From the NCBI GenBank assembly GCA_029351405.1, contig GCA_029351405.1_4841.1: 64,000 bases of DNA. One strand, written 5' to 3'. Below the pieces are notes generated by a model. The model did not search any database. It was not told the origin of the DNA and worked only from the letters and a program-made list of their open reading frames with translations. The position numbers and the translations under genes were made by a program. This document shows, one piece after another, positions 41,190-64,000 of this stretch (the first letter of the stretch is position 1; each line of letters starts with the position of its first letter). The stretch is from Escherichia coli (GTDB lineage: Bacteria; Pseudomonadota; Gammaproteobacteria; Enterobacterales; Enterobacteriaceae).

Positions 41190-41218
41190 ATAATAGTGCA
41201 TCATTATTGAAGAGTAAA
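41190..41218 (-). promoter_or_regulatory. sigma70 / T4-early-type promoter
   Basis: Minus-strand TTTACT -35, 17-nt spacer, TATTAT -10, AT-rich upstream tract; about 70 nt upstream of ATG at 41116. Confidence 0.45.
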
Positions 41219-61254: not shown

Positions 61255-61333
61255 GGTGATTCTCCTTATTTCATTGGATGAAATGATAGGCGGCTCACCA
61301 TGTTGAGTAAAGGGTTTCAATAAACTATCGTAT

Positions 61334-61783
61334 TCAGAAACGGGTATCGCTGACCGTTCTGTATCGCACACCCTGAAACTGTTTAGCGAGTTTAACAAAT
61401 TCCATCGCTGGTAAATCAACTTTGTAGACCTTCATGCGCTGTTTGCCGTCCATGTTCAACGCAGCGACAAATCGGTGTGAGCCGTCAACAACGTAATTGT
61501 CAGAAGACACCCAAACCCGACCCATAGGTTTCTTATTTCTGATGTTCTTCATGATCTTCCAGACCTTCATCTTGTTGATTTCGTTCTGGGTAAGACGAAG
61601 CATTTTGATGGGCACTTGCGCAGCATCTATGGACACGCCGTTGTCTTCAAGATATTTGTGAAAATCTTCTTGTTTGTCGGCATCGATTTGCGGCATAGAA
61701 GAACGAGAAAGCCCGAGGTTCCCAACAGGAATCCTCAGGCCGTTAATGATGTTCAACCAGTCAATAAAAGATGTAAGGAACAT
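61334..61783 (-). CDS. ParB/Srx-like nuclease-domain protein (putative)
   Basis: DGSHRFVAA motif resembling the DG-x-HR signature of ParB N-terminal / sulfiredoxin-fold domains. Confidence 0.4.
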   Translation of the reverse strand: MFLTSFIDWLNIINGLRIPVGNLGLSRSSMPQIDADKQEDFHKYLEDNGVSIDAAQVPIKMLRLTQNEINKMKVWKIMKNIRNKKPMGRVWVSSDNYVVDGSHRFVAALNMDGKQRMKVYKVDLPAMEFVKLAKQFQGVRYRTVSDTRF

Positions 61784-63302: not shown

Positions 63303-63494
63303 TTACCTTTCCCACGATACCTGTCTCGACATCAACTTCTTCAGCAACCCACTCTTTCCCTTCTTGCTGATGATAACGTCACGACGCTGTGCGTAGACTT
63401 CTTTGGTCGCATACACACGACGGAACCCTTTAGCGCGGAGCAAGCCCCAATTGCGATCAATTTCTACTGAGGTTTCTACCATTTTGTTCTTCAT
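63303..63494 (-). CDS. small basic protein
   Basis: 63 aa ORF preceded by TTGAAA-N3-AAGATTATAACATG; a second frame continues past its stop. Confidence 0.35.
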   Translation of the reverse strand: MKNKMVETSVEIDRNWGLLRAKGFRRVYATKEVYAQRRDVIISKKGKSGLLKKLMSRQVSWER

Positions 63495-63585
63495 GTTATA
63501 ATCTTACCTTTCAACCCGGTGAACCCATCGTTCGCCAGTTATTGAATAATAGGACATTCCTTAGAGGAAGTAAACCCCTAAAAGT

Positions 63586-63610
63586 AAAAATCCCCAACGT
63601 TTGTTGGGGA
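63586..63610 (-). terminator. rho-independent terminator
   Basis: TCCCCAAC-loop-GTTGGGGA hairpin followed by TTTTTACTTTT on minus strand, just after ACP-like gene stop. Confidence 0.5.
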
Positions 63611-63616
63611 CTTCTG

Positions 63617-63940
63617 TTATTTGCGCAGGGCAACTACGAGTTCAGCGAGTTCACCCATGGTCGGGTCATCACCTTTACTGCCCAGCCAACCATCGTCGAT
63701 TTCGACCTGAAACTCTTCTTCGAGGTCCATTACAATTTCGATAGCGTCCAGTTCATCACCGCCGAGGTCTTTCTTGGTACGGAGGCCAGCCAGCTTGTCC
63801 AGGGCGTCCTCGTTCTGAGATGCCACGTCGTCCAGCAATTTGCGCTTGTCATCGTCACGCCACAGATCCAAGTTCAGATTGTCAGTGGCGTACTGAGCCA
63901 GATGACGCATGACTTCAACATATGTTGGTTTGCTGCTCAT
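63617..63940 (-). CDS. acyl carrier protein-like protein
   Basis: C-terminal half matches ACP helix II region (LGGDELDAIEIVMDLEEEFQVEIDD) but has Glu where the phosphopantetheine-attachment Ser of DSL is expected. Confidence 0.55.
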   Translation of the reverse strand: MSSKPTYVEVMRHLAQYATDNLNLDLWRDDDKRKLLDDVASQNEDALDKLAGLRTKKDLGGDELDAIEIVMDLEEEFQVEIDDGWLGSKGDDPTMGELAELVVALRK

Positions 63941-64000
63941 GCTACTTCTCCCAAAGAATGGCGGGTTGCCCCGCCCGTTGGATTAGATTTTGATTTCTTT

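What the first reader, a model, noticed from the sequence alone, without database searches (positions are those of the whole stretch)
63617..63940. ACP-like protein lacking the phosphopantetheine-attachment serine
The C-terminal half reads DLGGDELDAIEIVMDLEEEFQVEIDD, which closely matches the ACP helix II region (consensus [20 protein letters not shown]) but has Glu where the modified Ser belongs. A roughly 55-residue N-terminal extension precedes it. The gene has its own terminator. A non-acylatable ACP look-alike could act as a decoy for ACP-binding partners (ACP interacts with many host enzymes) or as a structural mimic.
Basis: partly seen in the sequence, partly recalled or inferred. Interest (0 to 1): 0.55.

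Follow-up and report, generated by a model that had tools for sequence, protein, structure and literature searches.

The report
Phage ACP look-alike lacking serine
A whole family of large enterobacterial phages (Ackermannviridae) carries a small, strongly conserved copy of the bacterial acyl carrier protein that keeps the docking helix but has glutamate in place of the serine that holds the cofactor. It therefore cannot carry fatty acids and most likely acts as a binding mimic rather than a carrier.

Summary
Window 63617-63940 (minus strand) encodes a 107-aa protein with a genuine ACP fold: it passes the Pfam PF00550 threshold, matches about 100 solved ACPs, and its AF2 model matches ACP structures. 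Glu63 aligns exactly with the phosphopantetheine-attachment Ser36.

This is a family trait, not an error. The window is an Ackermannviridae phage. In about 270 phage genomes and in relatives down to about 30% identity the site is always Glu or Asp, never Ser. dN/dS is 0.03-0.09.

The recognition helix II (D35, L37, D38, E41, L42-V43-M44, E47) is retained. The true extension is a helix of about 27 aa, not 55 aa. The terminator is real.

The gene always lies downstream of a conserved 713-aa vWA/MIDAS protein. Homologues of that protein in T4-like, AR9, AF3 and Thanatos phages have no ACP-like neighbour.

Databases label the gene "acyl carrier protein". I found no paper that notes the missing serine.

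Function is inferred only. The most likely role is a non-acylatable mimic that occupies ACP-docking sites on host proteins (about 0.4). The main rival is a partner of the neighbouring vWA protein (about 0.2).

It is a new variant of a known kind. The closest precedent is the Ppant-less mitochondrial ACP of Plasmodium.

The parts
63617..63940 (-). CDS of the 107-aa Ser-less ACP-like protein (ATG 63940-63938, TAA 63619-63617)
   Evidence: ORF listing. Pfam PF00550 above cut-off. PHROG 4154 at E 7e-57. dN/dS 0.03-0.09 against close relatives.
63752..63754 (-). Codon GAA = Glu63, at the position of the phosphopantetheine-attachment Ser36 of ACP
   Evidence: phmmer alignments to solved ACPs place D-E-L on D-S-L. 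The codon was read. The column is E (21) or D (2) in 23 family members and E or D in all divergent members.
63710..63769 (-). Residues 58-77, DLGGDELDAIEIVMDLEEEF: loop end plus helix II, the ACP 'recognition helix'
   Evidence: L59, G60, G61, D62, L64, D65, I67, E68, E74 and E76 are invariant in the family. They correspond to ACP D35, L37, D38, V40, E41, E47 and E49, with L42-V43-M44 kept as I-V-M.
63860..63928 (-). Residues about 5-27: family-specific extra N-terminal helix, the true extension of about 27 aa
   Evidence: The AF2 model has a helix at 7-21 ahead of the ACP helix I equivalent at 30-40. The alignment with E. coli AcpP and with shorter family members (Bue1, 3M) shows this segment is the addition.
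63620..63691 (-). Residues 84-107: W85/G87/DDPT loop (family signature) and helix IV
   Evidence: W85, G87, D91, D92, P93, T94, G96 and E97 are invariant in 23 sequences. The loop is absent from the most divergent member, Serratia phage 3M.
63945..63952 (-). Ribosome-binding site GGGAGAAG
   Evidence: Read directly from the sequence.
63953..63975 (-). GC-rich hairpin (GGCGGGG-CAA-CCCGCC) plus ATTCTTT, between the vWA gene stop and the ACP-like RBS
   Evidence: The terminator-like scan finds it. It is present in all 24 loci compared, with stem changes on both sides that keep pairing: GGCGGGG/CCCGCC, GCCGGGG/CCCGGC, GGGGGC/GCCCCC.
63983..64000 (-). Last five codons and stop (…KEIKI*) of the upstream 713-aa vWA/MIDAS protein gene, cut by the window end
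   Evidence: The C-terminus EKEIKI is invariant in homologues.
63580..63616 (-). Intrinsic terminator after the ACP-like gene (TCCCCAAC-AAAC-GTTGGGGA, then TTTTTACTTTT)
   Evidence: Sequence. Fold of about -18.5 kcal/mol, conserved in most Ackermannviridae loci.
63546..63574 (-). Sigma-70-like promoter element TTTACT-N17-TATTAT for the next gene; it marks the end of the transcription unit
   Evidence: 3 copies in the window against 0.02 expected. Conserved in relatives.

Best explanation
The gene encodes a permanently cofactor-less mimic of the host acyl carrier protein.

Shown:
- It has the ACP four-helix fold.
- It keeps the acidic and hydrophobic face of helix II that host enzymes use to dock ACP.
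- The attachment serine is replaced by Glu or Asp throughout the phage family.
- It is under strong purifying selection.

Inferred:
- During infection the protein docks through helix II onto basic ACP-binding sites of one or more host ACP clients.
- Because it carries no phosphopantetheine arm, it occupies those sites non-productively. It would behave like apo-ACP, which is itself inhibitory. The result is to block or re-set a host process.
- Candidate targets are the acyl-ACP-dependent lipid enzymes PlsB and the Fab and Lpx enzymes, AcpS, MukBEF (which binds apo-ACP), and IscS or SpoT.
- The acidic side chain at position 63 may stand in for the negative phosphodiester of holo-ACP, or it may simply stabilise the N-terminus of helix II.
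- The family-specific N-terminal helix and the W85/DDPT loop would add specificity for the actual target.
For: Fold and homology.

Glu63 aligns with Ser36, and the site is E or D in every member from 99% down to about 30% identity, including unannotated copies.

Helix II residues are invariant. They equal ACP D35, L37, D38, V40, E41, M44 and E47, with L42-V43-M44 kept as I-V-M. These are the residues reported to contact AcpS (D35, E41, E47/E48; bioRxiv 10.1101/2025.01.28.635281) and to be needed for binding SpoT, FabZ, FabA and PlsX (PMC3340395).

Precedents for cofactor-independent action:
- MukB ATPase is stimulated equally by apo- and holo-AcpP (PMC8602292).
- Plasmodium mACP works without Ppant as a binding subunit (PMC8547962).

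Purifying selection: dN/dS 0.03-0.09.

The gene is a lineage-specific addition. Homologues of its upstream neighbour exist without it in six loci from other phage families. That fits an accessory, host-directed factor better than an obligate subunit.

Other phages carry independent Ser-less ACP copies among auxiliary and host-modulating genes.
Against: There is no direct evidence of any host partner, of toxicity or of timing.

No recognisable early promoter drives the unit, so its temporal class is unknown.

Host ACP is extremely abundant, so a pure competitor would need high expression or higher affinity.

The strictly conserved family-specific features (N-terminal helix, W85, DDPT) suggest a dedicated partner, and that partner could be a phage protein.

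The invariant position next to the vWA/MIDAS gene, and apparent co-transcription with it, point the other way.

PADLOC gave no hits, which is uninformative either way.
Confidence: 0.4

Rival explanations
1. The protein is a dedicated partner (subunit, regulator or chaperone) of the phage's own 713-aa vWA/MIDAS protein encoded immediately upstream. The carboxylate of Glu/Asp63, exposed at the tip of helix II, would complete the metal coordination of the MIDAS site, in the way integrin I-domains bind an acidic ligand residue.
For: The order small ORF, then vWA gene, then about 45 nt, then ACP-like gene is invariant in 19 IMG/VR Ackermannviridae loci. It also holds in relatives whose ACP-like proteins are only 33-48% identical and in Erwinia phage Bue1, where the ORF was not even called.

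There is no room for a promoter between the genes, so they are probably co-transcribed through a conserved hairpin.

The vWA protein has an intact, invariant MIDAS signature D24-x-S26-x-S28 … T97 … D127.

The replacement residue is always acidic.

Co-occurrence in the phage collection is near-perfect within the family: 271 records with the ACP-like gene against 270 with a vWA homologue at >=60% identity.
Against: Full-length vWA homologues with the same invariant MIDAS residues occur in about 230 further phages. These include RB43, Miro, leE, AR9, AF3 and Thanatos-1. None has an ACP-like ORF within 2.5-3 kb, while positive controls were detected. The vWA protein therefore does not need it.

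In Serratia phage 3M three genes separate the two.

Synteny inside one phage lineage with a rigid gene order is weak evidence.

Glu or Asp at the first turn of a helix is also what helix-dipole stabilisation would favour.

Ser-to-Glu ACP folds elsewhere (bacterial, other phages) have no vWA neighbour.
Confidence: 0.2
2. The protein is a general acidic mimic used against another target, for example a DNA or polyanion mimic that neutralises a host defence or a nucleic-acid-binding protein, as Ocr- or gp5.9-type proteins do. The ACP fold would serve merely as a scaffold.
For: The protein is very acidic: pI 4.24, with 27 Asp+Glu against 13 Lys+Arg. It lies in a region that also holds host-modifying genes such as a Mod-like ADP-ribosyltransferase. 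A viral acidic mimic that inhibits MukBEF is known (PMC7617805).
Against: The conserved residues are specifically those of the ACP recognition helix rather than a regular array of charges. E. coli AcpP is just as acidic, at pI 4.05. There is no hit to any defence-related model. There is no evidence for DNA-like geometry.
Confidence: 0.1
3. It is still a true carrier protein, loaded through a non-canonical linkage or at another residue.
For: None beyond the fold and the database label 'acyl carrier protein'.
Against: No serine is conserved anywhere in the family. The protein scores 33.7 bits against a cut-off of 70.45 for the TIGR00517 ACP equivalog. Phosphopantetheinyl transferases act on the Ser of the DSL motif, by established enzymology, and even S36T is non-functional in E. 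coli (PMC3340395).
Confidence: 0.03
4. It is a decaying or mis-sequenced ACP gene with no function.
For: The neighbouring gene in this very window does carry a 1-nt frameshift, so the assembly or this isolate is not flawless.
Against: The same substitution occurs in every homologue across about 270 genomes and in metagenomes. Ser to Glu needs at least two nucleotide changes. dN/dS is 0.03-0.09. The reading frame, RBS and terminator are intact.
Confidence: 0.01

Closest known systems
Bacterial type II fatty-acid-synthesis acyl carrier protein (E. coli AcpP; Pfam PF00550, TIGR00517)
   Same: Same small acidic helical-bundle fold. The recognition helix II is nearly identical: DLGGDELDAIEIVMDLEEEF against [20 protein letters not shown]. 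The pI is similar.
   Different: Glu or Asp replaces the cofactor-bearing Ser36, so it cannot be a carrier. It has an extra N-terminal helix of about 27 aa and a W/DDPT loop before helix IV. It falls far below the AcpP equivalog cut-off (33.7 against 70.45 bits). It is encoded by a phage.
Plasmodium falciparum mitochondrial ACP (mACP), a Ppant-independent ACP that binds Isd11-Nfs1 (PMC8547962)
   Same: An ACP fold that has lost the conserved Ser yet is retained and functional as a protein-binding module. The substituted residue itself contributes to the interface there (Phe113).
   Different: That case has Ser to Phe, is eukaryotic and organellar, and has a defined LYR-protein partner. Here the change is Ser to Glu/Asp, the protein is viral, and the partner is unknown. 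There is no specific sequence relationship beyond the shared ACP family.
Apo-ACP as an inhibitor in E. coli (growth arrest and inhibition of glycerol-3-phosphate acyltransferase; summarised in PMC3896788)
   Same: An ACP without its prosthetic group acts as an inhibitor of host lipid metabolism. This is the functional model proposed for the phage protein.
   Different: Apo-ACP is a transient form of the host's own protein and can be converted by AcpS. The phage protein is genetically locked in the cofactor-less state. Inhibition by it has not been tested.
Canonical phage-encoded ACPs (for example PHROG 5934 and many IMG/VR contigs)
   Same: Small phage-borne ACP homologues, often found among auxiliary genes.
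   Different: Most keep the D-S-L motif (46 of 61 non-Ackermannviridae viral loci read) and have normal length. The Ackermannviridae family never has Ser.
Viral protein mimics of host macromolecules (Ocr, gp5.9; PMC7617805)
   Same: Small acidic phage proteins that occupy a binding site meant for a host ligand.
   Different: Those mimic DNA. This one would mimic a host protein cofactor (ACP) and is a true homologue of what it mimics.

Membership tests
Acyl carrier protein / PP-binding superfamily (Pfam PF00550) | Sequence-profile match above the curated threshold | tested here: met
   24.8 bits against a gathering cut-off of 20.8. 99 solved ACP sequences matched at E<=1.
Acyl carrier protein / PP-binding superfamily (Pfam PF00550) | Four-helix ACP fold | tested here: met
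   AF2 model with pLDDT 79.6. The top 24 Foldseek PDB hits are all ACPs or carrier proteins, with target-normalised TM up to 0.78, although individual E-values are weak (0.3-3). BFVD gives ViI 'ACP' at TM 0.86.
Functional acyl carrier protein (AcpP equivalog, TIGR00517) | Conserved Ser of the D-S-L motif that receives 4'-phosphopantetheine | tested here: not met
   Glu63 is at that position. The column is E or D in all family members, and no conserved Ser occurs elsewhere.
Functional acyl carrier protein (AcpP equivalog, TIGR00517) | Score above the curated equivalog cut-off | tested here: not met
   33.7 bits against 70.45. All other NCBIfam ACP models are also far below their cut-offs.
Functional acyl carrier protein (AcpP equivalog, TIGR00517) | Carries a phosphopantetheine or acyl group in vivo | not testable with these tools
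   Needs intact-mass spectrometry of the expressed protein.
Functional acyl carrier protein (AcpP equivalog, TIGR00517) | Acidic recognition helix II with a central hydrophobic L-V-M | tested here: met
   D62, D65, E68, E74 and E76 are invariant or nearly so, and I69-V70-M71 is retained.
PHROG 4154 (phage 'acyl carrier protein' of Ackermannviridae) | Full-length profile match | tested here: met
   E 6.8e-57, residues 1-107 on profile positions 1-108. 271 phage records contain it at >=80% coverage.
Ppant-independent ACP adaptors (Plasmodium mACP type) | ACP fold retained under selection although the attachment Ser is lost | tested here: met
   Comparison with PMC8547962.
Ppant-independent ACP adaptors (Plasmodium mACP type) | Binds a defined protein partner (an LYR-motif protein) through helix II and the substituted residue | not testable with these tools
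   No complex prediction or interaction data were available. No LYR-type partner was sought.
Ligand of a vWA/MIDAS domain | An exposed acidic residue offered to an intact MIDAS site of a cognate vWA protein | tested here: inconclusive
   The acidic residue and an intact MIDAS in the adjacent gene are both present. No complex could be modelled.
Ligand of a vWA/MIDAS domain | Co-occurrence of ligand and vWA protein wherever the vWA protein occurs | tested here: not met
   vWA homologues in RB43, Miro, leE, AR9, AF3 and Thanatos-1 have no ACP-like ORF nearby.

The most novel reading that the evidence does not exclude
Ackermannviridae phages deploy a genetically 'locked-apo' homologue of the host's own acyl carrier protein, with a phosphate-mimicking Glu. 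It would hijack a host ACP-client hub such as MukBEF, PlsB/FAS, AcpS or SpoT. This would be the first viral ACP mimic.

It would also be one example of a wider, undescribed class of Ser-to-Glu/Asp ACP-fold proteins that act as non-carrier adaptors. That class includes signal-peptide-bearing bacterial proteins.
Probability: 0.3. Interest if true: 0.75.

Novelty: new variant of a known kind. Interest (0 to 1): 0.5.

Why it matters
ACP is one of the most connected hub proteins in bacteria. It touches lipid and lipid A synthesis, biotin and lipoate synthesis, MukBEF, IscS and SpoT.

A virus-encoded, non-acylatable homologue conserved across a whole phage family of therapeutic interest would be a natural probe and inhibitor of ACP-docking sites. 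It would also be a new mode of host takeover.

It corrects a widespread annotation as well. About 270 genomes call this gene 'acyl carrier protein' although it cannot be a carrier.

The experiments are cheap: expression toxicity, pull-down and intact mass.

If instead it serves the neighbouring vWA protein, it would give the first handle on a large, highly conserved and uncharacterised protein shared by Ackermannviridae, many T4-like phages and some jumbo phages.

Tried and rejected
1. Sequencing error or pseudogene. Rejected by family-wide conservation and dN/dS.

2. A host acpP resistance mutation reported in a Klebsiella phage study looked like a link. The phage (mtp5) is a Slopekvirus, not Ackermannviridae, and the mutation is plausibly an envelope effect.

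3. Fused domains in longer Ser-less ACP-like proteins. They are only tandem ACP repeats.

4. The IMG/VR search for divergent relatives outside the family returned mostly ordinary D-S-L phage ACPs.

5. Identity of the vWA protein:
   - Pfam finds only the vWA domain.
   - The PHROG is 'unknown function'.
   - The PDB profile search gave nothing.
   - The 'tail protein' label in one record is unsupported.

6. Temporal class. No sigma-70 consensus, no T4-late TATAAATA and no family TTTACT-N17-TATNAT element was found upstream of the unit.

7. Defence and anti-defence libraries gave no PADLOC hits.

8. Virion component. Only one peptide was reported for the homologue in phage Sajous1 proteomics (PMC10892097), which is too weak to use.

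9. The family review (PMC11721090) mentions neither this gene nor the vWA gene.

10. Contexts of bacterial Ser-to-Glu ACP-likes and of a Ser-to-Ala phage ACP showed no common neighbour.

Full report
**What is there**

Window 63617-63940 holds, on the minus strand, an ATG-to-TAA ORF of 107 aa:

MSSKPTYVEVMRHLAQYATDNLNLDLWRDDDKRKLLDDVASQNEDALDKLAGLRTKKDLGGDELDAIEIVMDLEEEFQVEIDDGWLGSKGDDPTMGELAELVVALRK

The surrounding DNA is 90-95% identical to Agtrevirus-type Ackermannviridae phages such as Enterobacter phage fGh-Ecl02, Escherichia phage AV101 and Salmonella phage vB_CECAV_050. Several of those records already label this gene 'acyl carrier protein'.

**Is it an ACP, and is the serine really missing?**

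- Pfam PF00550 (PP-binding) scores 24.8 bits, above its 20.8-bit cut-off. PF14573 scores 27.4 bits, below its 32-bit cut-off.
- PHROG 4154 'acyl carrier protein' matches end to end at E 7e-57.
- phmmer against all PDB sequences returns 99 ACPs at E<=1 and nothing else.
- The printed alignments put 'dlggdeldaieivmdleeef' on '[20 protein letters not shown]'. Glu63 therefore sits on the phosphopantetheinylated Ser36. The codon is GAA at 63752-63754, at least two substitutions away from any Ser codon.
- An AF2 model built on a 23-sequence alignment has mean pLDDT 79.6, with helices at 7-21, 30-40, 44-51, 66-77, 83-88 and 95-105.
- Its top 24 Foldseek hits in the PDB are all ACPs or carrier proteins. 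E-values are individually weak for so small a fold, but probabilities reach 0.95 and target-normalised TM reaches 0.78.
- In BFVD the only strong hit is the ViI homologue, followed by other phage ACPs.
- Against NCBIfam the protein reaches only 33.7 bits, where the AcpP equivalog TIGR00517 requires 70.45.

It is an ACP-fold protein but not an AcpP equivalent.

**A family trait under selection**

- The 5.8-billion-protein search found 39 cluster representatives.
- tblastn found the gene in 272 phage records, 271 of them full length and essentially all Ackermannviridae.
- In a 23-sequence alignment spanning 58-99% identity, the attachment column is Glu in 21 and Asp in 2, and never Ser. It lies inside an invariant L-G-G-D-x-L-D. 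No Ser is conserved anywhere in the protein.
- A profile search of 1.84 billion representatives recovered more divergent full-length relatives (P0040-P0045, P0048, P0061; 33-48% identity). All of them have D-[E/D]-L.
- Two still more distant copies were found by profile in Erwinia phage Bue1 and Serratia phage 3M. The Bue1 copy is an uncalled ORF in an 'empty' gap. Both have D-E-L-D.
- Nei-Gojobori dN/dS against four close relatives is 0.03-0.09.

Error, pseudogene and recent loss are excluded.

**Anatomy**

Aligned with E. coli AcpP and with the shorter family members, residues about 30-107 correspond to the whole ACP (helix I through helix IV). The addition is an N-terminal helix of about 27 residues, not 55.

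Family-specific invariant features are as follows:
- Y7, V10, L14, A18, N21 and L22 in the N-terminal helix.
- W85, G87, D91-D92-P93-T94, G96 and E97 before helix IV.

The recognition helix is conserved in exactly the positions that matter in ACP: D62 (ACP D35), L64 (L37), D65 (D38), I67 (V40), E68 (E41), I69-V70-M71 (L42-V43-M44), E74 (E47) and E76.

According to the literature, D35, E41 and E47/E48 are the ion-pair contacts for AcpS (bioRxiv 10.1101/2025.01.28.635281). The L-V-M triad is required for binding SpoT, FabZ, FabA and PlsX (PMC3340395).

The protein is as acidic as AcpP, with pI 4.24 against 4.05.

**Transcription signals**

The stop codon is followed by a strong hairpin plus T-run (TCCCCAAC-AAAC-GTTGGGGA-TTTTT, about -18.5 kcal/mol). 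This is conserved in most genera. After it comes a TTTACT-N17-TATTAT promoter-like element for the next gene. That element occurs three times in the window against 0.02 expected, always on the gene strand.

Upstream, between the stop of the preceding gene and the RBS GGGAGAAG, lies a GC-rich hairpin with a short T-run. It is present in all 24 loci compared and is kept by changes on both sides of the stem.

There is no space for a promoter between hairpin and RBS. No sigma-70-like, T4-late-like or TTTACT-type promoter was found for 6 kb upstream in a relative. The gene is therefore probably expressed by read-through from the upstream gene. Its temporal class is unknown.

**The neighbour**

The upstream gene has only its last five codons in the window. 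It encodes a protein of 713-757 aa with an N-terminal vWA domain and an intact MIDAS signature (D24-x-S26-x-S28, T97, D127). The signature is invariant in 34 diverse homologues.

The order small ORF, vWA gene, about 45 nt, ACP-like gene, 79-aa ORF holds in 19 of 19 IMG/VR Ackermannviridae loci and in the divergent relatives.

This suggested that Glu/Asp63 might be the acidic ligand of the MIDAS metal. The test by distribution goes against an obligate partnership:
- The vWA protein has full-length homologues in 504 phage records.
- About 230 of these are outside the Ackermannviridae: the RB43, Miro and leE T4-like phages at about 47% identity, Bacillus jumbo phage AR9, Rhizobium phage AF3 and Shewanella Thanatos-1.
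- Six such loci contain no ACP-like ORF within 2.5-3 kb, while positive controls score E 1e-12 to 1e-41.
- In the T4-like phages the same slot, after a similar terminator hairpin, is occupied by an unrelated protein of 205-216 aa.
- In Serratia phage 3M three genes separate the two.

**Mechanism**

Shown: the ACP fold, an intact docking helix, no attachment site, strong selection, and lineage-specific presence.

Inferred: the protein works by binding, not carrying.

I consider a host-directed, non-productive occupant of ACP-docking sites the most likely reading (about 0.4). The reasons are:
- What is conserved is precisely the generic client-recognition surface of ACP.
- The gene is an accessory addition to a module that functions without it elsewhere.
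- Cofactor-less ACP is known to be biologically active. Apo-ACP inhibits glycerol-3-phosphate acyltransferase and growth more strongly than holo-ACP (PMC3896788). MukB binds apo-AcpP and is activated by it (PMC8602292). MukBEF is already known as a phage target (PMC7617805).
- SpoT is a less likely target, because it is reported not to bind apo-ACP.

The acidic residue at position 63 may imitate the phosphodiester charge that partner Arg residues recognise in holo-ACP, as in the ACP-Isd11 case described in PMC8547962. It may instead simply stabilise the first turn of helix II. The data cannot separate these.

The main rival is a dedicated role with the vWA/MIDAS protein (about 0.2). Minor rivals are a general acidic mimic (about 0.1), a non-canonical carrier (about 0.03) and a non-functional relic (about 0.01). 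The rest of the probability is 'something else'.

**Comparison with the known**

The closest functional precedent is the Ppant-independent mitochondrial ACP of Plasmodium. There Ser is replaced by Phe and the protein is essential as an Isd11-binding subunit. The authors found Ser-less homologues of that ACP almost only in apicomplexans (PMC8547962).

The phage protein fails two defining tests for a functional ACP, the Ser and the equivalog score. It should not be annotated as an 'acyl carrier protein'.

I found no paper that mentions the missing serine. The Ackermannviridae review does not mention the gene at all.

**Wider pattern**

These searches were biased toward Glu-containing sequences, so the counts below are not frequencies.
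- Among the 147 best profile hits covering the site, 19 have Glu and 14 Asp, against 111 Ser.
- Many bacterial Ser-to-Glu ACP-like proteins carry signal peptides or lipoboxes.
- A separate group of phage ACPs has Ser-to-Ala.
- Their gene contexts share no theme.

Non-carrier ACP folds may therefore be more common than appreciated.

**Verdict**

The decoy interpretation is plausible but untested, and a concrete rival was identified. This is a new variant of a known kind and is of moderate interest. Simple experiments would decide between the readings.

Noticed in passing
window 63303-63494 (minus strand), deletion near 63357: The gene downstream of the ACP-like gene is a very conserved 79-aa protein (PHROG 804, 77-99% identical across genera). 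In this window it carries a 1-nt deletion (GGC AAA becomes GG- AAA). The deletion shifts the frame after residue 47 and yields a 63-aa product. The original C-terminus is intact in the other frame. This is either a sequencing or assembly error or a real knockout in this isolate.
   Followed up: yes
window 63953-63975 (minus strand); same position in L002-L020 and L082-L085: A GC-rich hairpin plus short T-run sits between the vWA gene and the ACP-like gene. It is maintained by changes on both sides of the stem across genera, and a similar hairpin follows the vWA gene in T4-like phage Miro, where it is annotated as a terminator. It may be an attenuator that sets the ratio of the two products, or an RNA 3'-end stabiliser.
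   Followed up: partly
L092 4816-5115 (Erwinia phage vB_EamM-Bue1, MG973030.1): A 99-aa Ser-less ACP-like ORF (…HFAMDELDYIEFIMELEDD…) lies in a 440-nt stretch where the collection's gene calls list no gene, directly after the vWA gene.
   Followed up: yes
proteins P0192, P0195-P0199, P0206, P0216, P0217, P0219, P0236-P0238, P0256, P0257; loci L099, L100: Bacterial ACP-fold proteins of 114-160 aa have D-E-L-D instead of D-S-L-D and carry N-terminal signal peptides or lipoboxes. They would be exported ACP folds that could never meet a phosphopantetheinyl transferase. One lies inside a methylcitrate-cycle operon (PrpB-like, PrpC-like, the ACP-like gene, PrpD) and another follows ArgJ. They appear to be uncharacterised.
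   Followed up: partly
L035, L040-L045, L051, L054-L057, L063; L095/L096 (P0207): A separate group of phage ACP homologues has Ser-to-Ala (D-A-L-D). P0207 sits in an auxiliary-metabolism gene array (MazG, GGACT, APS kinase, IMPDH, NAD synthase, PMM, SufE). Loss of the attachment serine has therefore happened more than once in phage ACPs.
   Followed up: partly
L001 8338-10479 and homologues (P0281-P0400); last codons at window 63983-64000: The 713-757-aa vWA/MIDAS protein is one of the best-conserved proteins of the region: 52% of columns are invariant across five divergent Ackermannviridae-type phages. It is shared with many T4-like phages, Bacillus phage AR9, Rhizobium phage AF3 and Shewanella phage Thanatos-1. 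Its C-terminal 450 or so residues have no solved structural relative. One pharokka-annotated record calls it 'tail protein', and I found nothing to support that label.
   Followed up: partly
window 41190-41218, 61283-61311, 63546-63574 (all minus strand): TTTACT-N17-TAT(T/C)AT elements occur three times against 0.02 expected by chance, all on the coding strand and upstream of genes. They are probably a phage-specific class of sigma-70-type promoters.
   Followed up: partly
phage records OR844942.1 ('Enterococcus phage Efm 3-10') and two 'Pseudomonas phage' records: Records named for non-enterobacterial hosts carry a full-length copy of this Ackermannviridae-specific gene at about 59% identity. 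They may be mislabelled or contaminated records.
   Followed up: no
window 61334-61783 (minus strand): A 149-aa ORF annotated 'cytidyltransferase' in a relative contains a DGSHR motif, which I recall as typical of ParB/sulfiredoxin-type domains. The database label looks doubtful.
   Followed up: no
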